In this document: piece by piece, positions 1 through 64,000 of the stretch
Numbering within the stretch: position 1 is the stretch's first letter
Layout of the letters: each line of letters starts with the position of its first letter
Virus record (IMG/VR): IMGVR_UViG_3300017725_000001
Location: 32,001 to 96,000 of that record
Strand: one strand, 5' to 3'
Length of the DNA: 64,000 bases
Source: a virus
Notes under the pieces: generated by a model
Told to the model about the DNA's origin: nothing
The model's database searches: none
Seen by the model: the letters and a program-made list of their open reading frames with translations, nothing else
Position numbers and translations under genes: made by a program

Positions 1-230
1 GGTGTTTCTTCTGATATAAGATCAGCCGCCGCTTTAATTAATGTTTCTTGAATATCTGCACTCTCAATTCCATTATAAAATTGTAAGTGACTTTTAATTT
101 CTACTTCACTAGCACTTACACCTGTAATATTTTCGCAGGCGTAAAATACAACCTTATGCATCTTCTCAAGGTCAAGTTCTTCTTCTGTACCATCTCTTTT
201 TTTGATTATTGTTTTTATTGCTGTCATCAT
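1..230 (-). CDS. nrdA: Ribonucleotide reductase class Ia alpha subunit, N-terminal ATP-cone (runs off the left edge)
   Basis: Not in the ORF track. My translation is MMTAIKTIIKKRDGTEEELDLEKMHKVVFYACENITGVSASEVEIKSHLQFYNGIESADIQETLIKAAADLISEETP, closely resembling the NrdA N-terminus. AGGA RBS at 233-236. Confidence 0.93.
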   Translation of the reverse strand, partial: MMTAIKTIIKKRDGTEEELDLEKMHKVVFYACENITGVSASEVEIKSHLQFYNGIESADIQETLIKAAADLISEET

Positions 231-282
231 TGTCCTAAATCTCAAATAGTCTTGTATTTACATCGGCTGTAGCTATAGATAA

Positions 283-720
283 CTATTTGCTTAATGTACT
301 AACATCAATATCTTTTAAAACTTCTAGTTCTTTGTCTATAATGTCAGTGGTGTCTATATTGTTATAATTATAGTTTAAAACGTACTTGTTGTCAACTAAA
401 ACTATTAACTTTATATCATTTTTTTCCACAGTTTGTACAAGCAATATTCTACAGGCTATATTACTATAGTGTAACGTGTATGCCATACCCAACGACACAA
501 CATTTTCGTCGTAATCATTCTGATGTAGCATTTCCCAAGGTGTACTCCATGTTGACTCATCAAATGGATCAACTTTTCTAGTACCTACTGGTGTTGTATT
601 CCAAAAGTCTAAAACAACTTGTAATTGTTCTAAAATATTGGAAACACCACAAATCCGTTTCCTTAATTCACGCCACCTTTGAATTCTTTGTCTAGGAGGC
701 AATTGCCATACTTCGTCCAT
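283..720 (-). CDS. Hypothetical protein, possibly a degenerate transglutaminase-like (BTLCP-type) fold
   Basis: WSTPWEML...SLGMAYTL...LIVLVDNKYVLN recalls BTLCP motifs but lacks the catalytic Cys/His. Confidence 0.45.
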   Translation of the reverse strand: MDEVWQLPPRQRIQRWRELRKRICGVSNILEQLQVVLDFWNTTPVGTRKVDPFDESTWSTPWEMLHQNDYDENVVSLGMAYTLHYSNIACRILLVQTVEKNDIKLIVLVDNKYVLNYNYNNIDTTDIIDKELEVLKDIDVSTLSK

Positions 721-724
721 TTAT

Positions 725-1480: not shown

Positions 1481-1510
1481 TGTTTATTCCTTAATATAAT
1501 GTATTTATCT

Positions 1511-6454: not shown

Positions 6455-7219
6455 TTACATACCTGTCATTTTACCAGCAGTATATCCAGCCGCAAATGCC
6501 GCCGCTCCACGTGCAATACGTTTACCTATACTACCTTTTTTCTTATTGTCTATCTCTAATCCTGCTTCGTTTGCATACTTTGTAAATATTGGATTTAAAT
6601 CACTTCTTCTAGCATTTAATCTAAAATATTTTGTTAATTGTGTAGCCGCTAATTGTCTTTGAGTAGTATTTAAAGTATCCCACTCACCTACTAGTCTTCT
6701 AGCCGCTTTTAGTTTTGGATCTTGTATTGCTAAATTTTTTTCTAATCTATAAAAGAAAGCCTGTGCTTGTCCTGTGTTTATCTTTCCTGATTCAATTTGT
6801 TTTAAAAAGTTTCTAATTCTTTTTTGTTCTACATTAACTTTAGCAAGTAATAACTTATCTGCTTCTGAATCAGCTAATCCTGTGGGTTTTAATGTAGAGT
6901 GTATTGTTTGATATAAATCTGTTCCACTAGGACTAGGTTTATTCCAATTTGAAAACATACTTGTTCTACGTGCATATTCTTTTGCTACTGGTGCATATTT
7001 GTAATCATTTGCCATTGCGTATAAACTCATCATACTTACAAAAACATGATCTGTTAATGATCTAGCACCTTGAGCTTTAATCATATCACGAGTTCGAAAC
7101 ATTCTAGCTTCGCCTAATGAATTAATAAATTCTAAATACGGCTCTTCGCTATCTTTGGGCATTTCGTGTCCGCCTTGCATTGCCGAATATTGTTCTAATG
7201 TATATTTTTCTTTGCTCAT
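6455..7219 (-). CDS. Hypothetical protein, probable head-internal protein
   Basis: LGEAR candidate cleavage site; C-terminal GAAAFAAGY hydrophobic/glycine-zipper segment. Confidence 0.55.
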   Translation of the reverse strand: MSKEKYTLEQYSAMQGGHEMPKDSEEPYLEFINSLGEARMFRTRDMIKAQGARSLTDHVFVSMMSLYAMANDYKYAPVAKEYARRTSMFSNWNKPSPSGTDLYQTIHSTLKPTGLADSEADKLLLAKVNVEQKRIRNFLKQIESGKINTGQAQAFFYRLEKNLAIQDPKLKAARRLVGEWDTLNTTQRQLAATQLTKYFRLNARRSDLNPIFTKYANEAGLEIDNKKKGSIGKRIARGAAAFAAGYTAGKMTGM

Positions 7220-21040: not shown

Positions 21041-21058
21041 ATGTTTTTTCTCCTTGTT

Positions 21059-21085
21059 AAAAGAGTGTAGCCGAAGCTACACTCT
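21059..21085 (-). terminator. Intrinsic terminator with a C(UUCG)G tetraloop
   Basis: Minus strand AGAGTGTAGC-TTCG-GCTACACTCT followed by a T-run. Confidence 0.88.
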
Positions 21086-21093
21086 AGATTTAA

Positions 21094-22116
21094 TTACTGC
21101 TTTCTATTTCTAATAGCCGCTAAAATGTCTTGAGCACTCGGTGCATCACCTGCTGGTGCCGCAGTAGCAGTTGCCATTTCTGGTTCCTTGTTAACTACTG
21201 GTGCCGCTGGTGCTGGCGTTGGCGTTGGAGCAACGGGTGCTACTGGCGCCGGTTGAGGTGCTGGTTGCGGTGTACTAGCAGTAGTTTCAATTACCTTAGC
21301 TTCTGGCTTAGGTGAACTACCACTTGGTGCATCTACACCATATGGACGATAATAAGAACCAAAACGTTCTGGATCATATAGTTGTCCATCTACACTCGCT
21401 TCAAACATTTCAAAAATTGCATTTAGCGATTCTGCATCTGGCTTCTTAGGAAGGAAGTCATTTAGATTAAACAAACCGTGTTTTGCAATAGCATCACGTT
21501 CTGCTTGATCTAGACTACGTTCTCTACGAGCCCAATTAGATGTTGAATAATCAGCATACTGACCTTTGGTAGATTTCTTAACTGTGAAATCAGTACCTGC
21601 TTCGTAATCAGTTGGTATCTCCTGAAATTCAGGATCCATTAATGCTGAGCTGATAATTTTATAAATCTGTGGTGAAATAACAAATCGTCTGATTGGATTT
21701 TCTGGAAGACTGTCTTCTTGCATATCACTTGCAGTTACAAAACCTTGGAAAATGTATGAACGTTTTTTCCAATATTTACGACCCATATCTTCCATAGTCG
21801 TATCTTTAAACCAAGGACGGATTTCTGCATGAACTGGGCATTGTTCTCCCCACATTTCCACACACGGAACCTGTACTGTTACTGGTTTAGTTTCGTCTTG
21901 ACCCTTTACACCAGGAAAACTCAAACGAATCATTTGTCTTTCTTTCCAAAAGAAAGTATTGTTCTCGTCTGCGTCTGGTAAGAATCTAAGTGTTGCTGAT
22001 GTGCCCTCTGGTATGTTCCAGTGAGCGAAGATGGCGTTATCTGACGCCATGTTAGAGCTTGTGCTCTTTGTTTCTTGTGCCTGTAATTTAGCACGGATAT
22101 CTGCTAAAGATGCCAT
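21094..22116 (-). CDS. Single-stranded DNA-binding protein (T4 gp32-like)
   Basis: ATLRFLPD, CPV, YWKKRSY and YADYSTS motifs; Pro/Ala linker. Confidence 0.9.
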   Translation of the reverse strand: MASLADIRAKLQAQETKSTSSNMASDNAIFAHWNIPEGTSATLRFLPDADENNTFFWKERQMIRLSFPGVKGQDETKPVTVQVPCVEMWGEQCPVHAEIRPWFKDTTMEDMGRKYWKKRSYIFQGFVTASDMQEDSLPENPIRRFVISPQIYKIISSALMDPEFQEIPTDYEAGTDFTVKKSTKGQYADYSTSNWARRERSLDQAERDAIAKHGLFNLNDFLPKKPDAESLNAIFEMFEASVDGQLYDPERFGSYYRPYGVDAPSGSSPKPEAKVIETTASTPQPAPQPAPVAPVAPTPTPAPAAPVVNKEPEMATATAAPAGDAPSAQDILAAIRNRKQ

Positions 22117-22212
22117 AATGTATCTCCTTTATTAGCCTATAATAGTAAGTTAACTCTGTGTTAACTTTTTAGTGTAATCTATTGATTACGTTTGCCTTTG
22201 TTAGCCTGTACA

Positions 22213-22241
22213 GTATACAGTTTATAGTACTTACTGTCAAG
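22213..22241 (-). promoter_or_regulatory. Sigma70-type promoter of the SSB gene (coordinates approximate)
   Basis: TTGACA-17 nt-TATACT. Confidence 0.75.
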
Positions 22242-22247
22242 TACTTT

Positions 22248-23723: not shown

Positions 23724-23761
23724 TGTTTAGTTATCCTTTAATGTATTTATCATTTTAAGCA

Positions 23762-25318
23762 TTATAGTAGGCTAAATGGCATTGGTTCCATACCGTCATC
23801 ATCTTCAAAGTCGTCATTAAGGTATTCAAATGCACTTTCTTCGTATTTTGATACTTCCATACTCATACGTACTATTAATACTAATGACATTACCAAGTCA
23901 TCATTTTCGCCATCTTTAGCTGAATAGCTATTTCCTCTAGCTATAAATGTTTTTAATTCTCTTAATAGAGGCTTACTTGCTACCTCTAACTTATCAGTTT
24001 CAATCCAATGCTTTAGTTTAGCACAAGCTGATATTTTTGATTTATGTGTTGTAGTAAAGCCTCTTCTGTATCTTCTAGCATTTCCATGCTGTCTTGTTTC
24101 AGTTAAAAATGTACCAGGAAAGTTTTCTTCTCCTTGTTCTTCTACTGTAACCAGAGCCGCTTCACCAAGTGTATTATTTTCCATGCTATAATATATTTCA
24201 CAATCGTTATTTGTTTCACTTTCAATGTATTGTGCAATCTCACGTAAAATTTTAATCTGTCCTTGTACAGTAGTTCTATTGTGCATCCACTCTGCCATTT
24301 GTTTCATTCCTGGCATTTGATAAACTTGTATAGCACTATTATCTCCTCCTGTGCCTAAACTTGGATCCAATGCTATCATATAAAGTTTACCTTTTGCTAA
24401 TGGTGCATACCACCTAACTTGACCTGCTGTTGCGTAAGGGTCCCTTGCTTCCATATTTGCAAGTCTAATACTATCAATTAGTGTTTCATCAAATGCAATA
24501 AATTCACATTTATGTTCACGTCTAAATCTTTCTTCGCCAATTTTTCCTAATTCAACTTCAGCCCAATCTTCATCTCTATCTGGGTGAGCTTCCCAAGTTG
24601 CTTGATAATGAGCAAATCCATTTATACCAGTAGCAGTTTCGTTTCCAAATTCATCTTGATTCTTTAATGAGTCTCGCCAAATTTGTGCAAACTGATCGTC
24701 ATCCATGTTTGGTGTACTTGTAATAATACATTTACCACCTGTTGCTAGTGTAGGTGAAAGTGAGGTCCAAAACTCTTTAGCTATGTTTGGTCTAACAAAT
24801 GCAAACTCGTCTAAGTATACTAATGAAATAGATAAACCTCTACCTGTGTTTTCTGTTGTTGACTGTGCAATAATACGACTACCGTTATCAAACTCTAAAC
24901 TACCTTTATTGTAACTTGTTACACCAGCACGTATAAAGTCTGGAAGTGTTTCGTATGCAAATCTAACACGTTGCATAATTTCACTAGCACCTGCATATTT
25001 GTGTGCCGCTACTAAAATTGTTTGATCAGGATTAAACATAGCATACCATAACAGGTAACCTGCCGCACAGGTACTCTTACCCATTTGTCTGGCTAACATA
25101 CTAATACTGTATCTATTTTTATGATATACGTCTACTAGCTCGTCTTGAAAATTATATAGATCAAATTTTAGACGTCCTTGAGTAGGATGTTGAATATAAC
25201 AATGCTCCCTCATAAAATATTTTGGGTCATTGGCACATCTAGCTAACTCAGTAAGTTGAGCTTCTGTATATTTTTCTTTTCTATAAGGGGTTTTGGTTAA
25301 TTTTGTGTCTACTGCCAC
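23762..25318 (-). CDS. Terminase large subunit (T4 gp17-like)
   Basis: ARQMGKS, YLDEFAF, ITSTPN, LDPSLG and NDDLVMS. Confidence 0.95.
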   Translation of the reverse strand: MAVDTKLTKTPYRKEKYTEAQLTELARCANDPKYFMREHCYIQHPTQGRLKFDLYNFQDELVDVYHKNRYSISMLARQMGKSTCAAGYLLWYAMFNPDQTILVAAHKYAGASEIMQRVRFAYETLPDFIRAGVTSYNKGSLEFDNGSRIIAQSTTENTGRGLSISLVYLDEFAFVRPNIAKEFWTSLSPTLATGGKCIITSTPNMDDDQFAQIWRDSLKNQDEFGNETATGINGFAHYQATWEAHPDRDEDWAEVELGKIGEERFRREHKCEFIAFDETLIDSIRLANMEARDPYATAGQVRWYAPLAKGKLYMIALDPSLGTGGDNSAIQVYQMPGMKQMAEWMHNRTTVQGQIKILREIAQYIESETNNDCEIYYSMENNTLGEAALVTVEEQGEENFPGTFLTETRQHGNARRYRRGFTTTHKSKISACAKLKHWIETDKLEVASKPLLRELKTFIARGNSYSAKDGENDDLVMSLVLIVRMSMEVSKYEESAFEYLNDDFEDDDGMEPMPFSLL

Positions 25319-25349
25319 GTTAATCCTCCTGCATTGTATTTATATGAAT

Positions 25350-25379
25350 TAACCGTGCAGTTAATACACCGCACGGTTA
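25350..25379. terminator. Hairpin, probable terminator
   Basis: TAACCGTGC / GCACGGTTA inverted repeat. Confidence 0.55.
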
Positions 25380-25398
25380 TTTTTCGGGAGGGAAAATG

Positions 25399-27368: not shown

Positions 27369-27388
27369 TACGTATTTCTCCTATAATA

Positions 27389-31167: not shown

Positions 31168-31190
31168 AATTTATTATTGTAAGTGTCTTA

Positions 31191-33620: not shown

Positions 33621-33723
33621 GATATGCTCCTTTTTAAAATATTAGATTATTCTAATTGTTTAGTAATCTCTTATATGTAGTATTTATTTAAAATCGTGTA
33701 AAAACCCCGGTTACAGAGTTAAA

Positions 33724-34476: not shown

Positions 34477-34500
34477 ACTATAAATCCTTCTTTATAGTAT

Positions 34501-35139: not shown

Positions 35140-35145
35140 ACTATT

Positions 35146-35174
35146 ATTATAATGAGTTTTGGGTTAATTGTCAA
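35146..35174 (-). promoter_or_regulatory. Perfect sigma70 promoter, leaderless geometry
   Basis: TTGACA-17 nt-TATAAT-6 nt-ATG. Confidence 0.85.
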
Positions 35175-35796: not shown

Positions 35797-35800
35797 TTGA

Positions 35801-36541: not shown

Positions 36542-36580
36542 ATGTTAGTTTCTCCTACTACGTATTGTATTTATCAGATT

Positions 36581-41348: not shown

Positions 41349-42419
41349 ATGCCACGTTTTACACTATATAAGCCTTATAAAGGTAATGATTACAAATTCA
41401 TGGACAGAACTATACGAGAACAGTTCGATATAGGCGGTACGGCTATACACGTCCATAAGTATTTGGGTCCACAACCTCAACAAGGCAATAATGATCCTAG
41501 TGAGCCGAACTACGGCAGTGGTTTAGAAATAGACAATACAACCGGAGAAGAAATAAATCCAGAAGGTATAATTGATGAAACAAATATTCAAGACTTACTG
41601 TTTATGGAAAATAGAGATCGTAAATATGATCCTGATATTTTTGATCTTCGTGGAGTATATAATGTTAGTGACAATGACTTTGATTTAACTCAATTTGGAT
41701 TATTCTTAACCAACGATACTTTGTTTATAAGTTTTCATATCAATGATATGGTAGAAAAATTAGGTAGAAGATTAATGCCAGGTGATGTTATTGAATTGCC
41801 TCATTTAAGAGATGAACTTTTATTAAGCAACGACAGAGATGCTATTAATAAATTTTATGTAGTTCAAGATGCCGCTAGGGGTAGTGAAGGATTTTCACAG
41901 ACTTGGTATCCACATATTTGGAGAATTAAAGTAGCACCATTAACAGATACACAAGAATACAAAGATATACTTGGTAGTGCTAAAGATCCAGGAAGCCTTA
42001 AAAATAAAGTTAGTGCTTACAAAACAGAACTTAATATCAGTAATGCTATTGTGAAAAGTGCTGAAGAAGCTGATCCATTAGGTTTGCCACTTGCTGAACA
42101 TTTATTTGGCCAAGAAGAAGTTGATAACGAATACAAACACGGTGAAGCTTTACAACAAGGTGACCAGTTTCCAGGAAATCCCAAAGATGGAGAATATTTT
42201 ATTAGAACAGACTTTACTCCTAATAGACTATTTGTAAGACGTGGAAGCAAATGGCATAGATTATATGACAATGTTACTGAACAAACTTGGAGTGATAGAA
42301 CTTACAATGCTAGTAGCTTTATTAATAATAAGGCTACAACAATTATTGACGATCAAGAGTTTCCAGAACGTCAGCCTCTATCCCAAGTTATTAAACCAAA
42401 AAGTGATTTTAACAAATGA
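41349..42419 (+). CDS. Neck protein (T4 gp14-like)
   Basis: IQDLLFMENRDRKYD, DFDLTQFGLF and GRRLMPGDVIELPHL. Confidence 0.8.
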   Translation: MPRFTLYKPYKGNDYKFMDRTIREQFDIGGTAIHVHKYLGPQPQQGNNDPSEPNYGSGLEIDNTTGEEINPEGIIDETNIQDLLFMENRDRKYDPDIFDLRGVYNVSDNDFDLTQFGLFLTNDTLFISFHINDMVEKLGRRLMPGDVIELPHLRDELLLSNDRDAINKFYVVQDAARGSEGFSQTWYPHIWRIKVAPLTDTQEYKDILGSAKDPGSLKNKVSAYKTELNISNAIVKSAEEADPLGLPLAEHLFGQEEVDNEYKHGEALQQGDQFPGNPKDGEYFIRTDFTPNRLFVRRGSKWHRLYDNVTEQTWSDRTYNASSFINNKATTIIDDQEFPERQPLSQVIKPKSDFNK

Positions 42420-43777
42420 GCCAACAATACTTTTATGATAAACAAATAAGAAGATACATTCAACAATTTATAAGATTGTTTAGTGGCTTCAGTGTACAAA
42501 TGGGTAAAAATGAAGAATCAGGTCTTCCAGTATTTCATAAAGTTCCAGTACGTTATGGTGATATAAACAGAATGGCGGCTCACATAACAAGAGAGAACAG
42601 TGAAAACATTATGAATACTGTTCCATTTATAAGTTGTTATGTAACAAATTTAAATTTAGTACCAGAAAGACGTACATATCAAGATCATGTAGATAAAGTT
42701 CAAGTATACGAAAAAAAGTATGACCAAACTACTGGAGAATATAAAAACGAAAAAGGCAATAGCTATACTGTAGAACGTCATGCTCCAGTTCCTTACATAA
42801 TGCAAATGAACGCAGATGTATGGTCATCAAATACAGATCAAAAATTACAGTTACTAGAACAAATGCTTGTTTTATTTAATCCTACATTAGATATTAGAAC
42901 AAATGCTAGTCCACTAGACTGGACTGCGTTATCTCACGTAGAACTTACTAATACTACCTGGAGTACAAGAAGTGTTGGATCAAGTATTGACGATATTATT
43001 GATGTAGCTACAATGTCATTTGATATACCAGTTTATATAAATCCTCCTGCAAAGGTAAAACAACAAAAACTAATTCATACGATTATAAGTGAACTTTATA
43101 ACTTAGATGATGAAAACTTAGATCTATTTAAAGCTGAACAACCATTTAATAACGAAACTTTACAATATACAGTTGTAACATATGAAGATAGAAAAGTAAA
43201 ATATGAAAACAACAACCTTCAACTATTAAATGCTAATGGAAGCAATTTAGATGATGACGGTAATGTATTAGAATGGGCCAAAGAACTTACTCCATTTGGA
43301 GTATTACGACCTGGAATAAGTCAACTAAGACTTAGAAAATCAAAAGATCCAGGTGCTAAAGATGAAGATATTATAGGACGATTAGACGAACATCCAAGTG
43401 ATCCTAATTTACTAATCGTAGATATTGATCCTTCAACTTTACCTACTAATACACTAAATGCCGTAAATGCTATTTTAGATCCATCAATTAATTATCCAGG
43501 CGATGGAACTGTTCCTAGTGCTGTCACTGGACAACGTTACATACTAATTAATCCTATTCCTTCTACACCAATATGGAGTGGGTTAGTAGCTAATAAATAT
43601 GATGTTATTGAATATAACGGTTCAACTTGGAATGTTAGTTTTGATAGCAGTAGTGTAAGTGATACCCAACACGTTACAAACTTATCAAGTAGCGACCAAC
43701 TAGAGTGGAATGGTTCAGAGTGGGTTAATAGTTATGAAGGCGTATATAATGCAGGTTTCTGGAGACTTTACTTATAG
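42416..43777 (+). CDS. Tail sheath stabiliser/terminator (T4 gp15-like)
   Basis: YFYDKQIRRY, KVPVRYGD, PVPY and QKLQLLEQ-LVLFNP. Confidence 0.85.
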   Translation: MSQQYFYDKQIRRYIQQFIRLFSGFSVQMGKNEESGLPVFHKVPVRYGDINRMAAHITRENSENIMNTVPFISCYVTNLNLVPERRTYQDHVDKVQVYEKKYDQTTGEYKNEKGNSYTVERHAPVPYIMQMNADVWSSNTDQKLQLLEQMLVLFNPTLDIRTNASPLDWTALSHVELTNTTWSTRSVGSSIDDIIDVATMSFDIPVYINPPAKVKQQKLIHTIISELYNLDDENLDLFKAEQPFNNETLQYTVVTYEDRKVKYENNNLQLLNANGSNLDDDGNVLEWAKELTPFGVLRPGISQLRLRKSKDPGAKDEDIIGRLDEHPSDPNLLIVDIDPSTLPTNTLNAVNAILDPSINYPGDGTVPSAVTGQRYILINPIPSTPIWSGLVANKYDVIEYNGSTWNVSFDSSSVSDTQHVTNLSSSDQLEWNGSEWVNSYEGVYNAGFWRLYL

Positions 43778-43822
43778 TTGTGATGACCCACACGACGATT
43801 GTTCACATTGGATAACAAAAAT

Positions 43823-44254
43823 ATGATTACAGCCGCAGGATGTATATTTCTTAGCACAGATACAGGAAGAGTTATGCTTCAACACCGTAGTGGTGAAGTT
43901 AACCACCCTAGAACGTGGGGCTTCTTTGGAGGAAAATCAGATAATAATGAAAAACCAATTGATACGTTGTATAGAGAAATTGAAGAAGAACTAGGATTAG
44001 TTCCGGATATTAAAAAAGTTATACCTATTAATAAATTCACAAGTCCTAACAAAAAATTTATATACCATAGTTTTGTTGTAACTGTAGAAGAAGAGTTTAT
44101 TCCTATACTGAATAATGAAAGTGATGGTTATTGTTGGGTTAAAATAGGTAATTGGCCTAGACCATTACACCCTGGTGCTAAAATACAATGTAATTCAAAA
44201 CAATTTATAAAGAAAATAAAAACTGTGTTCGAGCAACACTCTACGAAGTTATAA
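43823..44254 (+). CDS. NUDIX hydrolase
   Basis: Nudix box GGKSDNNEKPIDTLYREIEEELG; LHPG. Confidence 0.9.
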   Translation: MITAAGCIFLSTDTGRVMLQHRSGEVNHPRTWGFFGGKSDNNEKPIDTLYREIEEELGLVPDIKKVIPINKFTSPNKKFIYHSFVVTVEEEFIPILNNESDGYCWVKIGNWPRPLHPGAKIQCNSKQFIKKIKTVFEQHSTKL

Positions 44255-55873: not shown

Positions 55874-58800
55874 TTACACATCAATGTAAGTAGCGATCAC
55901 TTTAACTGTAGCTGTACCACTTGTCGGAGTGTAAGTTAATTCAACTTGGTTTCCGTTCATAGTAACACTTGCATCACCAATTAAGTCTGCACCAGTATAA
56001 ACCATTGCGTACTCTGTAATGTATGCAGTACTACCATCATGTACTACTAAAGCTTCACGTGTCTCATAGTTACCTGCGCCGTCATCAACCTGCATGATGT
56101 ATTTCGCTGAACGATACAACGCACCGTTGAATGAATCAACTGTAGTTGAACCGGAAGCTGATACTTCACCTTTTTGTACGTATGCTTTAATATCAGCCGC
56201 TAGTTTGTCGAATGATACTGAGTTAGCAAGTAGTACTGGGTTAAGTCCTGCACCTGGTGATAACACAACAATTTGTGTACCAACTGGTACTGCTGAGTTA
56301 AACGTGATAGTTTTCGCCGCACTATCGATAGTGTAGTGAGTTGATGGATCCTGAATAACACCACCAACAAAAACCATTGCTTGGTCTTGTGTTGTAGTGA
56401 AAGTTAATGAATACTGCGTTGCAGATCCATCACCATTAATTGTCATTCTCTCTTGTGTTGAGAAAACATTTAACGGGTTTTTCAGTTCCATACCGTCTTC
56501 ATTTGAGTTAACTGCTAATACGTATCCGTCTTTGTTAGTGTAATCTGTATCAGATACATCTGTTAAGTCTAGGACTGATTCGTTAGTGTCAACCGAGATA
56601 ACACCTGTGCTGTTATCGTAGCTTACTAAGCCTGCGCCTGCAACGTCATTAACACTAATTGCCGCTCTGCTTCTGGCATCAGTGTAGTATAGGTTTGAAC
56701 CTTCAGCTAAGTCATCTGTAGTATTAGTAGAGATGTCTTGTGCTGAAATTGCCGCATCTAGTACTGCTTTAGATACTGCGTCACCTGGATTGGCCGCTGT
56801 TCCTAAACCTGTTACTAGTTGACCGCCCATAGCAATATCGCCACTCATTGTTCCACCAGCAAGTGCTAGTTTAGTTGCGATTACTGTGTCTTGAGCCGCA
56901 TCAGCCGCCGCAAACTCAGTACGGATAGCCGCCCTGTCAGTTGTCGCCGCCGCGTGGTCTGTGTCGTTGTCATTTACTTCGCTTGTTAAAGCTGTACTTA
57001 GGTTAGTAATGGCAGTTGCGTTTGCCGCTACTGTACCTGTTAGTGTGCTGTCTGCATTTTGGAAAGCAGTAACGATTTCAGTTAATGAATCTAGCGCCGC
57101 TGGATCCGTGTTACTGATAATATCGTTAACTGTGACTACTAAAGCGTCTGTACGTGTCACTTCTGTTGCCAAGTCTGTTGCTACTGTTGAAATAGACGTT
57201 GCATTAGCCGCTTCCGCCGCTGTTGCTCTAGCTGTTTCTGTAGCAATATCTGCCGCATTAGCTTGTTCTGCAGTTTGAGCTCTAGTTACTTCAGTTGCTA
57301 GGTTTGTAGTTAACACACCTTCTGCCGCTGTAGCTCTAGTTTCTTCTGCTTTAACAGCCGCATCTAACTTGTTATCAGCATCTTTCAATGATGATGCAGT
57401 TGAGATGTAGTCTGCTGTTGCATTTGCTGAATATGTACCATCAACACCTAAACCTGCGCCAGCTTGTGTAGCTGTAATTTCAGTTAAGTTGTCTGCGATA
57501 TCAGTTGCATTTGCCGCTTCTGCCGCTTGAGCTCTTGTTGACTCATTTGCGATAGCTGTTGCATTTGCTTGTTCAGCCGCTCTTGCTGTAGTTGCTTCTG
57601 CTGTAATTGCGTTTGCATTCGCTGATTCTGCCGCTCTAGCTGTACTTGCTTCAGACGCTATGTCTGCCGCGTTAGTAGAGATGTCAGATGCATTAGTTGC
57701 GATTGCTGTTGCATTAGTTGCAATGTCTGCTGTATTACCAGAGATTGCTGTTGCATTTGCTGAAACATTTGTAGTTAGTGTTGCTTCTGCCGCTTCAGCT
57801 CTTGTTTTTTCAGCTAGGATTGCCGCATCTAATTTAGAGTCTGCATCATGTAATGATGAAGCTGAATCAATTGCGTGTGTTCCTGAGTGTGCTGAGTAAG
57901 AACCGTCACTTTGTAAACCTGCACCAGTTTCTACTGCATCAATTGCGTTATTAACAGAAGTTAAATCAGCCGCTGTACCTGAGTTCAGTTCGTTGATCGC
58001 TTCTGATAACGTTTGTGCAGTTGTCTGTAGTGCCGCACTACCTGCTTGTGTTTCTAAAGTAGATACTTTGCCTTCTTCAGCTGTTAGACGTGTGTCTAAT
58101 GCTGTGTCAGCCGCCGCAAATTCAGTACGAATTAACGCTCTGTCTGTTGAAGCAGTATTACTTAGACTTGTGATTGCACCATTGATTGTACTATCAGCAC
58201 TTTGGAATGCTGAAACAATTTCAGTTAGTGAATCTAACGCCGCCGGATCCGTATTAGTTAGGATTGAATCAATTCTAGCTGTTTCCGTGTCGATGTTACT
58301 TTGAAGTGTCGCTTCAGCTGTTGTTGCTCTAGCTACTTCGTTATTGATACTTGTTAAGTTAGTAGCAATATCGTTAGTGTTAGTTGCAATGTTAGCTGTG
58401 TGCGTTGAATCAGCAGTAGTTGAACGAGATACCTCGTTTGCTATTGCTGTTGCGTTTGCCGCTTCTGCCGCAAGTGCTCTTGTTTCTTCTGCTGTTACCG
58501 CTTGTGCGTTAGCAAGTTCTGCCGCTCTAGCTGTTGACGCTTCATTTGAAATAGCAGTAGTTAGAGTTGCGTCACCCGCAATTCTGTCTGCTGTTTCTGT
58601 TGCAATGTCACTTGCGTTAGTTGCAATGTCTGTCGCGTTAGTTGCTATATCACCAGTGTTAGCTGTAATAGCTAGTGTGTTTGCCGCTTCTGCCGCAAGT
58701 GCTCTAGTCTTTTCAGTTAGAACTTCTTGGTCAGTATAAGCTTCTGCTGTTGCTTCTGCACCCGCTTTAGCTGTTGCAATTCTATCTGTTACAGTATTAC

Positions 58801-60603
58801 CTGCTGTACCGTCTAGTGTTGCATCACCCATTAGTGCTACGTCTGCCGCATCACTGTCTGCGATTGCATTTGCTTCTGCCGCATCTGCTTTTGTAGTTGC
58901 ATCAGCCGCCGCAGTTGAAATCGCGTCTGCTTCAGCTGTATCAGCATATGCTTGTGCTGATGCTAAAGTTGATGCATCTCCTGCTTGTCTGTTTGTTGTT
59001 TCTGCCGCTATTGCCGCCGCATTAACACCTTCAGCCGCTTGTGCTCTTGTAGACTCCGCATTGATATTTGTTTGTAATGCCGCGTCACCAGTTGTGATGT
59101 CTGAAGCATTCTGCGAAATAGCAGTTGCGTTTGCGTTAATTGCCGCTGTTGCCGCTGAATCACCAGCTTGGAAAGCTGTAACGATTTCAGTCAGTGAGTC
59201 AAGTGCCGCTGGGTCTGTGTTAGTTAGAATGTTATCAATTCTAGCTGTTTCAGTTGCAATGTCAGCTGTATTAGTTGCGATATCAGCTGTGTTAGTTGCA
59301 ATATCTGTAGTGTTAGTATCAATCTCACCGTGAAGTTCGTTGATAGCCGCACCAATTGATGTTGCTGTAGTATCAAGTGGTGTATTTGCTACATCACCAA
59401 CTACTGTTTCTAACGCACTAATATCTGAAGCATTTGTAGTAACTTTAGCGTCAACTACTGCTACCGCTGTATTGATAGCCGCTGTCTCTGCCGCTGATAC
59501 TGTATCTGCGTGTGCTTCAGCCGCCGCTTGTGCCGCGTCTGCTTTTGTAGTTGCATCTGCCGCCGCTGTAGCGATTGCATCTGCTTCTGCTGTATCTGCG
59601 TATGTTTGTGCTGATGCTAAAGTTGTTGCATCTGCTGTTGCAAAGTCTGTTCTTACCGCTGTATCTGCATTTGCTCTTGCAGTCGCTTCGTTTGCAATGT
59701 CTTGTGCATTTGCTAATTCAGCTCCTGATGCACGTGTAACTTCTGCCGCTAAGTCGGTTTGTAGTTGTGAAACTTCACCGTCTGTAGCAGATATTTCCGC
59801 CGCCAATCCAGTTGTTAGTGTAGTAATGTCACCTTCATTAGCAGTTACTCTAGCATCAAGTGCATTTTCAGCCGCTCTAGCAGTTGCCGCTTCTGTTGAA
59901 ATATCAGATGCGTTAGTTCCTTCAGCGCCTTGTGCTCTTGTTGCTTCTGTACTAATTGCAGTTGCATTTGCTTGTTCTGCAGTTTGAGCTCTAGCTGTCT
60001 CGTTTGTAATTAAAGTCGAGTTAGCTGTTATTGCCGCAGTCAATGCACTATCTTGAGATTGAAATTCTGCAACAATTTCAGATAAACTGTCTAATGCCGC
60101 AGGGTCAACGTTTGATATAATGTTTGTTATTTGAGTTTGTAATCCAGCATCTGCCGCTTTATAAGCTGTATCTAGAGCGGATTCTGCCGCTGTAGCTCTG
60201 CTTATTTCACTTGCGATGTCCGTCGCATTTACACCCTCTGCCGCTGTCGCTCTTGACGTTTCAGCCGCGATATCATTTGCGTTCTGAAGTTCAGCCGCAC
60301 GTGCTATCACTGCTTCTGCCGCCACTGCTGTAGCAATGTCTGCCGCTACTGCTGATTGAGCTTTTGCATCTGTAAAGTATTCATTACTTGAACCTTCGGT
60401 AATATCATCAGTTGTAATGAACCAATAAAATTTGCCGCTGTAATACTTTTCAGAGCTGAAGTCGCATTGTCGTGTAAAAGGAAAGCATCTAAGTTGTTTG
60501 CTGATGTAGTTGCAGTTTGGCCTGAAACTGAACTCGCATCAAGTTTGGTATCGATAACCGCTTGGTTAGCCAACGCCGGACTCTTAATTTGTCTAAAAGC
60601 CAT
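55874..60603 (-). CDS. Giant Ala/Thr-rich coiled-coil fibre (about 1575 aa), split by a -1 frame break near 60413-60433
   Basis: The RBS-bearing MAFRQIK ORF joins in the -1 frame to TTDDITEGSSNEYFTDAKAQ, which is continuous with the 1483-aa ORF. Four DPAALDSL-EIV repeats; C-terminal YRSAKY domain. Confidence 0.8.
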
Positions 60604-60751
60604 AGAGATTTCTCCAATCAAATATATTTGATTTGCCTATAATCTTTATAAGCAAAAGAATACGTACATAAAGTAAGTATTCTGCATAGGCCGTAAAACC
60701 CATACAATGTATTTATTCAATATTGCTGTTTATTATATATTATGATATTGT

Positions 60752-61942
60752 TTAAATTGGAAGAAATCTGAAGTCTACAACCGCTCCAGTTGATGGAGCA
60801 TTATTAAGAGTTAATGTAGCTCCTAGTATACTATAATCTGTAGGAGGAAGTATTGCTCCATCTACAATTACTAATATACTATGTACAGTATGACCAGTTG
60901 GAATAGTATATTGTGTTGTACTATTGTCGCCAGCATACTGACTACTATTATATATCAAGTTTAGATGTCTATTTTCTATGCAGTTATCAGGAAATGCTGT
61001 AATACTTGCAAAATGAAATCTATACTTTACATATATATCTGCACCATTATCTGGTGTAACATTAAATACTAGTTTTTTATTTGAATCTATTGAGAATACA
61101 TCTGGTCTTTGTAATACATCGTCTACGTATACATCAATAGCTTCTACTGAAGGTAAATCACTAGCTGTTAATTGATATTCTGTTGTTGTGCCATCACCTG
61201 TAAATGTTTGTGCTGGCTCTATACTAGTTGATGGGAATGCTAAATCATTTCTTAATAGTGCTTCTAAGTCAGTTAATTCTGTGCTTGTTGCGAATGCACT
61301 ATCAGCGCCTTGAAAGGCTGTAACAATTTCACTCAAAGAGTCAAGTGCCGCTGGATCAGTATTTTGAATGATACTATCAATTTGATCTTGTAAGCCTTGC
61401 GTTACTGTTGCATCACCTACACCAAATCTACCTTGATATACTGCTCCACTTATATATACACTTTTACCTGTAAATGATTTACCATTTGGTAAACTATCAC
61501 CAATAAAGTTTAGTACACCAGATTGATAATCAAAGAACCATTCGTCATTATTACCACTACCTGTTACAAATACTTTGTTAGCTAAACTTTCAGCACCTGC
61601 TGAATCGTTAGTATCATGTATGTAAACACTTACTAGATATGTACTACCAAATTCTGGAGTTATCCAATCTGTAATACTTGTTTTCCATGTTCTATTTCCT
61701 GTTGATGTAATATCTTCTGAACACTCAACAGCATTATATAATTTTACCTGTGTTGTATCTGCTGATGGTTTTACTGCTGGTATGCTACCTGCTTCTGCCC
61801 AAACTTTATCACCACGTAATAAAAGTGGACTTGCTATTGCTTCGTTGGCCGCTAACTTATTGGCATTAATATCTGTTTTAGTAGCACCATAACCAATCTT
61901 CTTAAATAGGTAGTCAATTTTTTGATTATCACTAATTGCCAT
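60752..61942 (-). CDS. Virion structural/fibre-base protein
   Basis: WFFDYQSGVL, TDPAALDSLSEIV and two GDG-TT-Y-type beta domains. Confidence 0.75.
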   Translation of the reverse strand: MAISDNQKIDYLFKKIGYGATKTDINANKLAANEAIASPLLLRGDKVWAEAGSIPAVKPSADTTQVKLYNAVECSEDITSTGNRTWKTSITDWITPEFGSTYLVSVYIHDTNDSAGAESLANKVFVTGSGNNDEWFFDYQSGVLNFIGDSLPNGKSFTGKSVYISGAVYQGRFGVGDATVTQGLQDQIDSIIQNTDPAALDSLSEIVTAFQGADSAFATSTELTDLEALLRNDLAFPSTSIEPAQTFTGDGTTTEYQLTASDLPSVEAIDVYVDDVLQRPDVFSIDSNKKLVFNVTPDNGADIYVKYRFHFASITAFPDNCIENRHLNLIYNSSQYAGDNSTTQYTIPTGHTVHSILVIVDGAILPPTDYSILGATLTLNNAPSTGAVVDFRFLPI

Positions 61943-63999
61943 TAGTTAGACTCCCCTATTTGTAAATTTGTAATTTGTTTTCCTGCTTCTAATGCTATTC
62001 TAATCAATACAACATTATTAGTTGCATTACTCATATTCTCACTACCTAATGTCATTGTATAAGTTGAGTTAATACTTGAATTAGTTGGAATAACGTCTGC
62101 ACCTGTTAATGCACAACCATCACTACCATTACCACCTGAGCCTGTGTTACTACCTGGAACACCAACACCTGCGTATTGAGCTGTACCATCTATCCAACCA
62201 TTTAATCCACTTGCACCGTCAACGGTAGTACCTGGTGCCGCAATCCATAATCCACTTATTCCATTTGTATTAATTGTAATACTAAAGTTAGCTACAACCT
62301 GTCTACGGAATGCGAATGTAAAATATTGTGTTCCTGTGTCTGCACTTCTATCAGGGCCAACTGGAAGATACCCAGTTGAATAATCTGTTGTATTGTGTTC
62401 TAATGTTCCCCAACGTACAGTTGCTTCTTGTGTTCCACTTACACTTACTGCACCAGTAAATGGTGTAGCTGTATAATCTGTTGAACCTACTATTGTTGGA
62501 TTGTCTGTACTATCTGAAACAAAATCTGCTATACGTATTGCATTATCTGTTATTGTTCCATTACCTAAACTACCCGCTACAGGAATACTATCTTCTATTA
62601 CACCTGTTGGATTAGATCTATGTACTTGTACTTTTGTATCAAATTCTGTATAACTACTTGTTCCGTTAACATTTTTTATTCTAGCTTTAATAGTTTCTAT
62701 TGCCGCAATATTTGATTGTGTAATATCAATAGTTTGATCAGCAAACGAATAACTTAATGTGTTAGCTGTTGGTATACCACTTACTAGATATGAAGCATCT
62801 TCTAAGTCCGCATAGTCTTTAAATTGTGTTTGAATTGTACCAGCTGAGGTACCTTCTACATTAGTACCATTACTAATTTCTAAAACATTATTAGTATCTC
62901 TATATGCTTGTCCTATCCAATTTGATACATTTAATCCAGATAATATTAATTTTGGATTTCCTGTATTATAATATGGTATACCTGATATGTATCTATAAGT
63001 TCCTGAAACACTTTCAGAAAGAATAGAACTAGTATTATCAAGTGTAGGTACGTCTGTTAGATCATCACACATAACTGTTACGTAATTTGTTTCACCTGTT
63101 GTACTATGTTCTATTCTCTGATCATTAACACCAATAGCATACTCTGCAAATGGTTTAGAAATTTTTGAATCAAATGTTTGATAGAAACCAGTTGGGTATG
63201 TTGAAGCACTTATTGTATTGTGAGCATCATCTTGTTGAGTGATCACTAAATCATTAAATGTACCAGTTTCATTGAGGGAAGTAGAAAAGGTTGTTGATCC
63301 ATTTGGCGTACCATTTACTATTGCAGTTACAGTACCCGCTAATCCATTATATGCATTTTCAGCTATTGTTGTGTCAAGTGTTCCACTAGTATATCTTCTT
63401 GCAGTATTTGTATCCAAATCATCACCTGCTGTTAATGGTGACGTTGCACTATTATCTGTGAAATTATATGCTAATTTTGGATCAGTACCTTGTGCAGGAT
63501 CTACTAGTGAAATTGTTTTATTTCCAAGTCCGTCTGGAGCAGTAGGAACTGCATGAACTTGAAACGTTAAATTCTGTGTATCTGTTTGAGCTGTTATATC
63601 TGGTGTACCACTAGCTGTATAATCTAGTTGATAGTTACCAGGTGTTTTGCCTGAGAAGTCATGTTGTATAGATCCTTCAGTAGTTGTTGTATCATTAGAA
63701 CTTCCATCATTCCAATTAAATTCAGCACTATCTTTATTTTCTGAAGTATCTGTGACTTCTACTATTGCTCTGTTATTACCTAAATAATCAAATCCATCAT
63801 AAACATCAAACTGGTTATCTCCATTCTTGTCTGATACTTGTACTGCCGTTCCAGATATGTTTGCTCTTACGTCTGGCTCAACGTGTATACTAAACGACGA
63901 ACTTGTAAATGGACTGCTTGAGTGTCCACTTATTACTTGTAAATTACCTGTATAATCTTGAGGTGTATTATTATTTGTTAATGTATATTTGTGTGTTAT
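61942..63999 (-). CDS. Large virion protein with PKD/Ig-like domains (5' end outside the window)
   Basis: The frame stays open from the window end (ITHKYTLTNN...FNWNDGS...HDFSG); the track start at 63417 is internal. Confidence 0.8.
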   Translation of the reverse strand: MTHKYTLTNNNTPQDYTGNLQVISGHSSSPFTSSSFSIHVEPDVRANISGTAVQVSDKNGDNQFDVYDGFDYLGNNRAIVEVTDTSENKDSAEFNWNDGSSNDTTTTEGSIQHDFSGKTPGNYQLDYTASGTPDITAQTDTQNLTFQVHAVPTAPDGLGNKTISLVDPAQGTDPKLAYNFTDNSATSPLTAGDDLDTNTARRYTSGTLDTTIAENAYNGLAGTVTAIVNGTPNGSTTFSTSLNETGTFNDLVITQQDDAHNTISASTYPTGFYQTFDSKISKPFAEYAIGVNDQRIEHSTTGETNYVTVMCDDLTDVPTLDNTSSILSESVSGTYRYISGIPYYNTGNPKLILSGLNVSNWIGQAYRDTNNVLEISNGTNVEGTSAGTIQTQFKDYADLEDASYLVSGIPTANTLSYSFADQTIDITQSNIAAIETIKARIKNVNGTSSYTEFDTKVQVHRSNPTGVIEDSIPVAGSLGNGTITDNAIRIADFVSDSTDNPTIVGSTDYTATPFTGAVSVSGTQEATVRWGTLEHNTTDYSTGYLPVGPDRSADTGTQYFTFAFRRQVVANFSITINTNGISGLWIAAPGTTVDGASGLNGWIDGTAQYAGVGVPGSNTGSGGNGSDGCALTGADVIPTNSSINSTYTMTLGSENMSNATNNVVLIRIALEAGKQITNLQIGESN

Positions 64000-64000
64000 C

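What the first reader, a model, noticed from the sequence alone, without database searches (positions are those of the whole stretch)
1..64000. Apparent window-wide avoidance of GCWGC: Ala-Ala is forced into GCS-GCN
Seen: Ala is normally GCA/GCT in this AT-rich genome, yet every Ala-Ala pair I inspected starts with GCG or GCC. There are dozens of GCCGC on the plus strand in 55874-60345, more at about 6490-6505, 21158 and 28056, and also in plus-strand genes at 41871, 42574 and 43832. I found no GCAGC or GCTGC by eye, though my scan was not exhaustive. Known: GCWGC is the target of TseI/ApeKI-type restriction-modification systems. Inference: long-term selection by a widespread host defence, or another sequence-specific factor, recognising GCWGC. 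This could serve as a host fingerprint.
Basis: partly seen in the sequence, partly recalled or inferred. Interest (0 to 1): 0.75.

Follow-up and report, generated by a model that had tools for sequence, protein, structure and literature searches.

The report
Phage DNA purged of GCWGC sites
This fragment of an abundant uncultured marine giant phage has silently rewritten its genes so that the restriction-enzyme word GCWGC never occurs, a clean example of a known anti-restriction strategy.

Summary
GCWGC occurs 0 times in the 64-kb window (about 74 expected) and 0 times in the whole 124-kb contig (172 +/- 7 expected under synonymous codon shuffling). All 209 of 209 Ala-Ala pairs start with GCG or GCC.

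The contig is a roughly 34%-complete piece of an uncultured marine T4-superfamily jumbo phage, found in seawater runs of 19 studies. RCATGY is also absent (0 vs 58). GCGC, GCWWGC and ACGCT are removed except where a G lies directly 5' of the word.

Relatives show that this is selection, not a general codon-pair habit:
- The closest ones share the purge.
- Many at 87-89% TerL identity keep GCA/GCT-GCN.
- The state changes at least 10 times on an 80-row TerL tree.
- 167 of 167 GCWGC sites of unpurged relatives are altered here.

Best explanation: avoidance of host Type II restriction targets (TseI/ApeKI- or BbvI-like for GCWGC). The host and its enzyme are not identified, so the 'host fingerprint' idea stays unproven. 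No methylase, DpdA or restriction-like gene was found in the fragment.

This scan already holds 212 notes on GCWGC avoidance in at least 158 other genomes. This is a new member of a known kind. The flank rule remains unexplained.

The parts
1..64000 (.). Whole window without any GCWGC or RCATGY on either strand. It holds 15 GCGC sites.
   Evidence: 0 GCWGC against 74.4 +/- 8.1 expected. ACATGT, ACATGC/GCATGT and GCATGC are all 0. (contig level): every surviving GCGC is GGCGC or GCGCC.
55874..60325 (-). Gene for a 1483-aa Ala-rich fibre-like protein, holding 67 Ala-Ala pairs, all written GCG-GCN (= GCCGC on the plus strand).
   Evidence: translation, and 67 of 67 first codons are GCG; 67 GCCGC and 0 GCGGC on the plus strand in 55874-60345; only a weak PHROG hit of unknown function.
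6455..7219 (-).
   Evidence: No Pfam family was found.
21094..22116 (-). gp32-like ssDNA-binding protein gene with GCCGC at 21116, 21158 and 21203.
41349..44254 (+). Three plus-strand genes (unknown function, gp15-like tail sheath stabiliser, NUDIX). Their Ala-Ala pairs are GCC-GCN at 41871 and 43832, and GCG-GCN at 42575.
   Evidence: In plus-strand genes of the contig the split is 7 GCG to 4 GCC, so the purge is independent of gene strand.
23762..25318 (-). Large terminase gene, used as the marker to find and order relatives.
   Evidence: PHROG terminase, E 8e-132.
31191..33620 (-). Tail sheath gene. It places the contig in the T4 superfamily and gave handles to related contigs.

Best explanation
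The contig belongs to a virulent marine T4-superfamily jumbo phage whose DNA is apparently not protected at GCWGC. Its lineage has been selected by nucleases that cut at short words, most likely host orthodox Type II restriction enzymes.

Proposed mechanism:
- For GCWGC the enzyme would be TseI/ApeKI-like, or a BbvI-like Type IIS enzyme reading GCAGC. The two cannot be told apart from the sequence.
- For RCATGY it would be an NspI-like enzyme.
- Every genome copy carrying a site was at a disadvantage, so sites were lost one by one, almost always by silent changes.
- GCA/GCT-GCN became GCG-GCN. This fits the phage's own tRNA-Ala(UGC), which reads GCA and GCG.
- CAG and CTG were replaced when they lay between G and C, and NGC-WGC pairs were recoded.

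Shown: the complete, codon-aware, lineage-specific purge and its substitution pattern.

Inferred: that the agent is a host restriction enzyme, and which enzyme it is.
For: (1) Size of the effect. GCWGC is 0 vs 171.8 +/- 6.8 and RCATGY is 0 vs 57.7 +/- 5.9 under synonymous shuffling. GATC (340 vs 344.5) and GGCC (78 vs 76.3) are untouched.

(2) All three reading frames are purged by silent choices, and GCSGC rises four-fold as compensation.

(3) GCWGC is a documented Type II target. TseI cuts G^CWGC (abstract of PMC3643589, seen in the listing). GCWGC methylation is reported in Microcystis and lake Chloroflexi (passages read).

(4) The distribution among relatives is patchy:
- L005-L008 (TerL 95-96% identical) and whole contig G001 share the purge (GCWGC 0/57, RCATGY 0/73).
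- Most relatives at 87-89% identity do not.
- On an 80-row TerL tree the GCWGC state needs at least 10 changes, RCATGY 2, GCWWGC 3 and HGCGCD 8. The words therefore behave as independent traits.

(5) Direct recoding. 167 of 167 GCWGC sites and 93 of 93 RCATGY sites of 8 unpurged relatives are changed at the aligned position here; 117 of the 167 differ by one base. The commonest changes are central A>G (66) and T>G (18). Orthologous sites of the 8 relatives are counted repeatedly.

(6) It is not a general codon-pair habit:
- In 10 unpurged loci, 281 of 389 Ala-Ala pairs start with GCA or GCT.
- In Melnitz, HTVC008M, P-SSM2 and Syn9 (first 50 kb each), GCWGC is at or above expectation.

(7) It is not an assembly artefact. 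20 runs from 19 studies hold at least 87% of the sampled words of window 20000-28000.

(8) The phenomenon is established. About a tenth of phage genomes eliminate orthodox Type II sites, mostly non-temperate dsDNA phages (PMC6286503; abstract and passages read).
Against: - No host is known and no GCWGC- or RCATGY-specific enzyme was found anywhere, so the agent is inferred.
- The one candidate host chromosome available is the 1.02-Mb contig of a Methylophilaceae bin that also holds a related phage contig. A 160-kb sample of it shows no avoidance (GCWGC 218/159), and the search of that bin (G010) found no C5-methylase. The binning link is itself weak.
- None of the four cultured marine T4-like phages tested purges GCWGC, so no known host is tied to this word.
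- The contig is only about 34% complete by CheckV, and 79 of 149 ORFs were not scanned against a protein-family library. A phage-borne nuclease or methylase therefore cannot be excluded.
- Three other purged words obey a flank rule that a plain restriction-enzyme model does not predict.
Confidence: 0.78

Rival explanations
1. Self-avoidance. The phage itself, or a co-infecting element, makes a GCWGC-specific nuclease with no partner methylase, for instance to destroy host or competitor DNA. The phage stays safe by carrying no sites.
For: - Earlier notes of this scan propose this for other phages (e1-5406559, e1-5336854). These are unchecked leads.
- The fragment does encode nucleases of unknown specificity: an SNase-like protein (L002 1242-1712) and a stand-alone 141-aa GIY-YIG protein (L003 17824-18249).
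- A patchy distribution among relatives fits a mobile gene as well as it fits a host enzyme.
Against: - No restriction-endonuclease family was hit among 60 ORFs scanned with Pfam and 10 more scanned with PHROGs, out of 149 ORFs.
- The GIY-YIG family occurs in 782 cultured phage records, including Melnitz, which is not GCWGC-purged.
- At least five different words are purged independently. That would need several such genes.
Confidence: 0.1
2. Mutational decay. GCWGC is methylated at cytosine (by host or phage), and 5-methylcytosine deamination erodes the sites without selection by cleavage.
For: GCWGC methylation exists in nature.
Against: - Deamination predicts C>T at position 2 or G>A at position 4. 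Among 167 recoded sites these are 8 and 18, against 84 central W>G changes.
- Decay does not reach 0 of 172 while keeping the protein sequence.
- No C5-methylase was found in the contig or in five large relatives.
Confidence: 0.02
3. A general codon-pair or translational preference (Ala-Ala read better as GCG-GCN), shared with the host and unrelated to DNA cleavage.
For: The strong preference for GCG over GCC (190 to 19) follows the coding strand, and the phage carries tRNA-Ala(UGC). Translation therefore shapes which escape codon is chosen.
Against: - The word is also absent in the two other reading frames and in the 7.6 kb not covered by ORFs.
- Relatives with 87-89% identical TerL, and cultured phages, use GCA/GCT-GCN freely.
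- A candidate host chromosome has GCWGC above expectation.
Confidence: 0.02
4. Artefact of sequencing, assembly or masking.
For: None found.
Against: - Near-identical sequence is present in contigs of 20 runs from 19 studies.
- Four independent IMG/VR contigs (L005-L008), from different samples by their record numbers, show the same absence.
- The frames are intact throughout.
Confidence: 0.01

Closest known systems
Restriction-site avoidance (elimination of orthodox Type II targets) in non-temperate dsDNA phages; survey by Rusinov et al. 2018, PMC6286503
   Same: Complete loss of short, mostly palindromic Type II-type words by silent changes, in a virulent-type dsDNA phage, with other words left untouched. 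Several words are purged at once.
   Different: The host and cognate enzymes are unknown here, whereas the survey starts from known host enzymes. Three of the purged words are spared when a G lies directly 5' of them. The passages I read do not mention this; the paper's supplements were not seen.
TseI / ApeKI (G^CWGC) restriction-modification systems and GCWGC methylases (M.AbaBS3I, Microcystis methylome)
   Same: The recognition word equals the purged word. Such systems exist in aquatic bacteria.
   Different: No such gene was found in any sequence linked to this phage. A BbvI-type GCAGC enzyme (recalled, not from a call) would leave the same footprint.
DpdA-dependent 7-deazaguanine DNA modification at GA and GGC (phage CAjan, PMC7544227; iggy, PMC10484667)
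   Same: It works like the flank rule would need. A mark on the G of GGC or GA blocks enzymes whose site includes or abuts that G (passages read; abstract). Here a G directly 5' of GCGC, GCWWGC or ACGCT goes with survival of the site.
   Different: - No TGT/DpdA, QueC or FolE family gene is in this contig.
- No TGT family gene is in five large relatives.
- TCGA, which contains GA, is still half depleted.
- GGCWGC is not spared (0 vs 28).
This phage is not a member on present evidence.
Melnitz-like and pelagimyophages of streamlined marine heterotrophs (PMC9004378)
   Same: - Marine T4-like myophages of about 34-37% GC with glutamine riboswitches.
- One protein is 78.8% identical.
- They share the depletion of unflanked GCGC and of GCWWGC.
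   Different: - TerL identity to any cultured phage is at most 53.7%.
- Melnitz and HTVC008M do not purge GCWGC or RCATGY, but purge GATC, AGCT or TCGA instead.

Membership tests
Restriction-site avoidance in virulent dsDNA phages | The missing word is a recognition sequence of known Type II enzymes | tested here: met
   GCWGC = TseI (abstract of PMC3643589). GCGC = HhaI (passage). RCATGY = NspI is recalled, not from a call.
Restriction-site avoidance in virulent dsDNA phages | Strong under-representation against composition- and codon-aware nulls | tested here: met
   0 vs 74.4 under dinucleotide shuffles. 0 vs 171.8 +/- 6.8 under synonymous shuffles.
Restriction-site avoidance in virulent dsDNA phages | Sites removed mainly by synonymous change, in all reading frames and on both strands | tested here: met
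   There is a small protein-level cost: the Ala-Ala observed/expected ratio is 0.73 here against 1.15 in unpurged relatives.
Restriction-site avoidance in virulent dsDNA phages | The host encodes a cognate restriction enzyme | not testable with these tools
   The host is unknown. One weakly linked candidate bin shows no avoidance and no C5-methylase.
Restriction-site avoidance in virulent dsDNA phages | The phage lacks another protection (own methylase, hypermodified bases) for that word | tested here: inconclusive
   No PF00145, PF01555, PF02086 or PF01702 in the contig. But the contig is about 34% complete.
DpdA / 7-deazaguanine DNA modification | DpdA (TGT-family) transglycosylase gene | tested here: not met
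   PF01702 is absent from the contig and from five relatives up to 56% complete. Divergent DpdA2 forms and the missing genome parts are not excluded.
DpdA / 7-deazaguanine DNA modification | preQ0 pathway genes (FolE, QueC, QueD, QueE) | tested here: not met
   QueC and FolE are absent from the contig. A QueC-like gene lies beside terL in 22 of 82 related loci, without correlation to purge state. FolE is found only in G007. QueD and QueE were not searched.
DpdA / 7-deazaguanine DNA modification | Words containing or abutting the target G are spared from purging | tested here: inconclusive
   Spared: GGCGC, GGCWWGC (partly) and GACGCT. Not spared: GGCWGC (0 vs 28). TCGA is half depleted.
Self-avoidance of a phage-borne site-specific nuclease | Restriction-type nuclease gene without a methylase, tracking the purge in relatives | tested here: inconclusive
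   None was found among the 70 of 149 ORFs scanned. Gene-content correlation was not possible with partial contigs.

The most novel reading that the evidence does not exclude
The words purged to zero and the words spared beside a 5' G may together record two layers of defence.

First layer: marine T4-like phages of this and neighbouring clades may carry an undescribed shield acting at G-purine steps (GGC, GA). It could be a DNA mark made by enzymes outside the known DpdA or methylase families, or a shared half-site rule of a family of host nucleases.
- In this phage the shield would suffice against enzymes reading GCGC, GCWWGC and ACGCT.
- It would not suffice against the GCWGC and RCATGY enzymes, so those words had to be erased in every context.

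Second layer: relatives such as G004, L030 and L069 still keep GGCWGC. They would face a GCWGC enzyme that the shield does block.

If this is true, purge profiles would tell both which nucleases circulate in uncultured marine hosts and where the phage DNA is modified.
Probability: 0.25. Interest if true: 0.7.

Novelty: new member of a known kind. Interest (0 to 1): 0.4.

Why it matters
For an abundant, uncultured ocean phage with no known host, the set of erased words is one of the few direct readouts of the defences it meets. That set is GCWGC, RCATGY, unflanked GCGC, GCWWGC and ACGCT.
- A host candidate should carry, or recently have carried, enzymes for these words.
- Relatives with the same set are candidates for sharing a host population. 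G002 is one such case, despite only 70% TerL identity.
- The fast turnover (at least 10 state changes among 80 close TerL sequences) and the small protein-level cost (fewer Ala-Ala pairs) show how strong and how local restriction pressure is in the plankton.

The phenomenon itself is textbook, and this scan has met it in many other genomes. The value here is as a very clean, well-controlled case, and as one more independent instance of the unexplained flank rule.

Tried and rejected
- Cyanobacterial host. The tandem glutamine riboswitch first suggested a cyanophage. But Melnitz-like and pelagimyophages also carry it (PMC9004378, passages), and the region's only matches among cultured phages were short ones, the best to Melnitz. 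The clue was dropped.
- DNA-strand asymmetry of GCCGC (a Type III-like orientation effect). The GCG preference follows the coding strand. Rejected.
- TGCGCA as an FspI-type target. It is part of the wider unflanked-GCGC purge.
- PRMT-like methyltransferase (L003 3451-4344) as a DNA methylase. Its nearest solved relatives are protein arginine methyltransferases. Rejected.
- QueC-like gene beside terL (a lead from earlier notes). It is present in 22 of 82 related loci across all purge states and absent from this phage's own clade. No correlation.
- FolE cluster of G007. It has no homologues in G000-G005 apart from a cytidylyltransferase-like gene. The 353-aa neighbour has no solved relative. Its family is unnamed, with one member carrying a glycosyltransferase domain. 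Not pursued, and not folded.
- GIY-YIG protein as the cause of the GCGC purge. The carriers FelixO1 and S-RIM2 show only a weak to moderate bias on a dinucleotide null. Inconclusive.
- Megablast of window 31000-37000 against cultured phages: no match.
- TerL in species genomes: only two hits, in MAG bins.
- Not used: structure prediction, complex prediction, read laying, the protein atlas and the representative-protein search.
- Supplements of papers were not available. Rusinov's per-genome tables might list GCWGC cases that I could not see.


Full report
**What the sequence is**

The window is bases 32001-96000 of a single 124,177-bp IMG/VR virus contig. The contig is linear and CheckV estimates it at 34% complete.

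It has 34.2% G+C. A crude ORF call gives 149 ORFs covering 94% of the DNA, 136 of them on the minus strand. Its genes include a large terminase, tail sheath, gp15-like, gp32-like and RecA/UvsX-like proteins, DnaB-like and other helicases, fibres with T4 long-tail-fibre-type tips and a T4 baseplate protein. This places it in the T4 superfamily.

No cultured phage is close. The best TerL identity is 53.7% (Pseudomonas jumbo phage PA5oct group) and the best sheath identity about 41%; megablast finds nothing. TerL has at least 587 relatives in IMG/VR, on contigs up to 205 kb.

Contigs of 20 sequencing runs from 19 studies hold at least 87% of the sampled words of window 20000-28000. All are labelled seawater, marine or viral metagenome. 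This is therefore an abundant, uncultured marine jumbo phage.

**The observation**

GCAGC and GCTGC are absent from the window. Dinucleotide-preserving shuffles give 74.4 +/- 8.1. They are also absent from the whole contig.

Shuffling synonymous codons within each ORF (200 shuffles) predicts 171.8 +/- 6.8 sites, lowest 150; the observed count is 0. GCSGC is 216 against 52.7.

| Codon context | Result |
|---|---|
| Ala-Ala pairs (209) | 190 GCG-GCN, 19 GCC-GCN, 0 starting with GCA or GCT |
| Ala codons before other codons | GCA and GCT make up about 90% |
| CAG between a codon ending in G and one starting with C | 0 of 27 Gln |
| CTG in the same position | 0 of 58 Leu |
| NGC followed by WGC | 0 of 466 relevant pairs |

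The 'dozens of GCCGC' in 55874-60345 are 67 Ala-Ala pairs of a 1483-aa Ala-rich fibre-like protein on the minus strand, that is, GCG-GCN on the coding strand. Without that gene the ratio is still 123 GCG to 19 GCC.

The preference for GCG follows the coding strand, not the DNA strand: 183:15 in minus-strand genes and 7:4 in plus-strand genes. The phage encodes tRNA-Ala(UGC). That this tRNA reads GCA and GCG is general knowledge.

**More than one word is missing**

Under the synonymous-shuffle null:

| Word | Observed | Expected |
|---|---|---|
| RCATGY | 0 | 57.7 |
| GCWWGC | 2 | 34 |
| GCGC | 25 | 76 |
| AGCGT/ACGCT | 19 | 94.5 |
| TCGA | 63 | 141 |
| CTTAAG | 5 | 17 |
| GATC | 340 | 344.5 |
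| GGCC | 78 | 76.3 |

GCGC shows a sharp flank rule. All 25 survivors are GGCGC or GCGCC.
- The unflanked class [ACT]GCGC[AGT] is 0 against 42.9 +/- 5.6.
- The flanked class is 25 against 34.
- 19 of the 25 survivors are GGC-GCN, that is, Gly-Ala.

So TGCGCA = 0 is not a separate FspI-type signal.

The same rule holds for two other words:
- GCWWGC: unflanked 0 vs 26.3, flanked 2 vs 7.6.
- The asymmetric word: AGCGT[AGT] is 7 of about 91 on a dinucleotide expectation, while AGCGTC, that is G-ACGCT, is 15 of 16.4.

The rule does not hold for GCWGC, where GGCWGC/GCWGCC is 0 against 28. Nor does it hold for RCATGY, which is 0 in every context.

**Relatives**

In the 80 TerL-centred IMG/VR loci (up to 21.5 kb each) the purges are patchy.
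- L005-L008 (TerL 95-96% identical) have 0 GCWGC and 0 RCATGY.
- Most loci at 87-89% identity have both words near expectation.
- 0 GCWGC reappears in L039, L063, L064, L066, L068, L071 and L073.
- A third state exists in which only unflanked GCWGC is removed. Examples, given as unflanked then flanked observed/expected: L030 1/10.7 and 5/4.7; L069 1/15.7 and 5/6.8; L075 0/18.1 and 4/8.1.

I built an 80-row TerL tree (quick IQ-TREE). L061, L083 and L086 were left out because under 450 aa aligned. The fewest state changes are at least 10 for GCWGC, 2 for RCATGY, 3 for GCWWGC and 8 for unflanked GCGC. The GCWGC classes were 56 unpurged, 11 full, 7 flank-conditional and 6 unclassed. The TerL tree need not represent whole genomes.

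Whole contigs confirm this on a dinucleotide expectation:

| Contig | Size | TerL identity | GCWGC | RCATGY | Unflanked GCGC | GCWWGC |
|---|---|---|---|---|---|---|
| G001 | 71 kb | 96% | 0/57 | 0/73 | 0/29 | 1/37 |
| G002 | 86 kb | 70% | 0/83 | 0/92 | 0/49 | 3/53 |
| G004 | 89 kb | 68% | 12/95, all flanked (unflanked 0/66) | 57/118 | 18/71 | 45/61 |
| G005 | 35.5 kb | 65% | 0/44 | 28/49 | 0/22 | 28/27 |
| G003 | 123 kb | 88% | 38/127 | 73/165 | 0/72 | 4/83 |

G002 has the same purge set as this contig despite the distance. In G003, 17 of the 38 GCWGC sites sit within 2.7 kb (59127-61849), and outside 45-80 kb only 3 unflanked sites remain. It is a purged backbone with an imported segment.

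Wherever 8 unpurged relatives align to this contig, all 167 of their GCWGC sites and all 93 RCATGY sites are altered here.
- 117 of the 167 differ by a single base.
- The commonest changes are central A>G (66) and T>G (18). T>C occurs once.
- Position-2 C>T (8) and position-4 G>A (18) are minor, which argues against methyl-cytosine deamination.
- Orthologous sites are counted once per relative, so these are not independent events.

Ala-Ala pairs themselves are somewhat rarer in purged genomes. The ratio of observed pairs to a within-gene residue-shuffle expectation is:

| Group | Ala-Ala observed/expected |
|---|---|
| This contig (G000) | 0.73 |
| G001 | 0.79 |
| G002 | 0.81 |
| G005 | 0.93 |
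| Flank-conditional contigs | 0.92-1.07 |
| 10 pooled unpurged loci | 1.15 |
| Four cultured phages | 0.96-1.15 |

Different genome regions are compared here, so this is indicative only.

**Cultured phages and a candidate host**

I took the first 50 kb of each of four cultured phages. Results on a dinucleotide null:
- Melnitz (OM43 host), HTVC008M (SAR11), P-SSM2 (Prochlorococcus) and Syn9 (Synechococcus) all have GCWGC at or above expectation (55/34, 65/34, 67/27, 93/62).
- Each has its own purge set. Melnitz loses GATC (4/175), HTVC008M loses TCGA (0/65), and P-SSM2 loses GGCC (4/59) and RCATGY (6/46).
- Melnitz and HTVC008M share the bias against unflanked GCGC (3/17 and 4/15, with 16 and 19 GCGC in all) and a GCWWGC deficit.

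Host clues for the present phage are weak:
- The riboswitch region matches Melnitz (77.6% over 76 nt).
- A stand-alone GIY-YIG protein is 78.8% identical to a Melnitz protein.
- A relative (L086, TerL 72%) is binned with a 1.02-Mb Methylophilaceae contig of identical G+C.

A 160-kb sample of that chromosome shows no avoidance (GCWGC 218/159, unflanked GCGC 98/93, RCATGY 76/112), and the search of that bin (G010) found no C5-methylase. The bias is therefore not a property of that genome.

**Search for phage-borne causes**

Six-frame family searches found the following:
- No C5, N4/N6 or Dam-type DNA methylase, TGT/DpdA, QueC or FolE in the contig.
- No C5-methylase or TGT in five related contigs up to 56% complete.

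I scanned 60 ORFs with Pfam and 10 more with PHROGs, out of 149. No restriction-type nuclease appeared. The nucleases seen are SNase-like and GIY-YIG. The one methyltransferase is PRMT-like.

**Literature**

- Rusinov et al. 2018 (PMC6286503; abstract and passages) document that elimination of orthodox Type II sites occurs in about a tenth of phage genomes, mostly non-temperate dsDNA phages.
- TseI cuts G^CWGC (abstract of PMC3643589).
- GCWGC methylation is reported for Microcystis panniformis (PMC4730716, passages) and for lake Chloroflexi (PMC6329791, passages).
- CAjan DpdA places preQ0 at GA and GGC and blocks enzymes at such sites (PMC7544227, passages).
- A full-text search for GCWGC + phage + avoidance found only the Rusinov paper and an archaeal review. 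I therefore found no printed account of GCWGC purging in marine phages within that library.

**This scan's earlier notes**

The scan holds 212 notes in at least 158 genomes on GCWGC avoidance. Several follow-ups describe the same flank rule. I took these as leads and tested them on this DNA. The rule holds here for GCGC, GCWWGC and ACGCT, and fails for GCWGC and RCATGY.

**Verdict**

The best-supported explanation is classical avoidance of restriction targets under strong, strain-variable pressure. Translation, through the phage's own tRNA-Ala(UGC), decides which escape codon is used.

The identity of the nuclease and of the host is unknown, so the 'fingerprint' use is a reasonable but untested proposal. 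A phage-borne nuclease remains a minor rival because two thirds of the genome is missing.

The flank rule is unexplained. A shield at G-purine steps resembles CAjan-type modification, but its defining genes were sought and not found.

Noticed in passing
L003 2332-2441 (-) = contig 98332-98441, about 2.3 kb beyond the window's end: Two tandem glutamine riboswitch aptamers (Rfam RF01739, 65.7 and 58.6 bits). The region matches the riboswitch-bearing ssrA region of OM43 phage Melnitz at 77.6% over 76 nt.
   Followed up: partly
L003 3451-4344 (-) = contig 99451-100344: A 297-aa methyltransferase whose nearest solved relatives are protein arginine methyltransferases (PRMT9, CARM1; E about 1e-9). 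It lies just upstream of the riboswitch-controlled small ORF. It is not a DNA methylase.
   Followed up: partly
L001 1700-11405 (contig coordinates are the same): A cluster of host-like genes on the phage: GMP reductase/IMPDH-like, cytidylyltransferase-like, class-I glutamine amidotransferase, translation initiation factor IF3, ClpX, ClpP and an HD-domain protein.
   Followed up: no
L003 17824-18249 (-) = contig 113824-114249: A stand-alone 141-aa GIY-YIG protein (Pfam SegE_GIY-YIG, 119 bits). It is 78.8% identical to a Melnitz protein, far above the TerL level, and its family is in 782 cultured phage records, often mislabelled 'NAD synthetase'. This suggests possible gene exchange with OM43/SAR11 myophages.
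   Followed up: partly
whole contig; examples at window 55874-60325: The escape codon for Ala-Ala is GCG ten times more often than GCC (190:19). Before other G-starting codons the two are equal (32:29). At aligned sites even GCT went to GCG (18) rather than GCC (1). The phage encodes tRNA-Ala(UGC) at L002 2702-2777.
   Followed up: partly
whole contig: The non-palindromic word AGCGT/ACGCT is depleted five-fold (19 vs 94.5). AGCGTA is 0 in the ORFs (22 expected under synonymous shuffling; 1 in the whole contig), while AGCGTC is at expectation. I know of no enzyme for this word.
   Followed up: partly
G003:C1:59127-61849 (relative, TerL 88%): 17 of that contig's 38 GCWGC sites lie in one 2.7-kb stretch of an otherwise purged genome. 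This looks like a recently imported gene segment from an unpurged lineage.
   Followed up: partly
L119 1495-2190 (G003) and 21 other related loci: A 231-aa QueC-like gene (Pfam 23.4 bits, C-terminal part only) lies immediately upstream of terL in 22 of 82 related loci. It is absent from this phage's clade and unrelated to purge state.
   Followed up: yes
L121 4531-14057 (G007, relative with TerL 66%): A cluster with GTP cyclohydrolase I, a YhhQ/Vut_1-type transporter, adenylosuccinate synthetase, a phosphoribosyltransferase, a PnrA-like binding protein, two 2OG-Fe(II) oxygenases and two unknown ORFs. It could serve purine or 7-deazapurine salvage.
   Followed up: partly
G010 (MAG holding L086): The bin consists of one 1,017,602-bp contig with an rRNA operon and a cobalamin riboswitch, plus the 89.5-kb phage contig. 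Both have 34.2-34.5% G+C. This is a possible but unproven host link to Methylophilaceae.
   Followed up: partly
window 55874-60325 (-): A 1483-aa protein made largely of Ala/Thr/Asn/Glu-rich repeats such as 'ATNxxDIATNT' and 'DPAALDSLTEIV', with a globular C-terminal part. It is probably a long fibre. Only a weak PHROG hit of unknown function was found.
   Followed up: no
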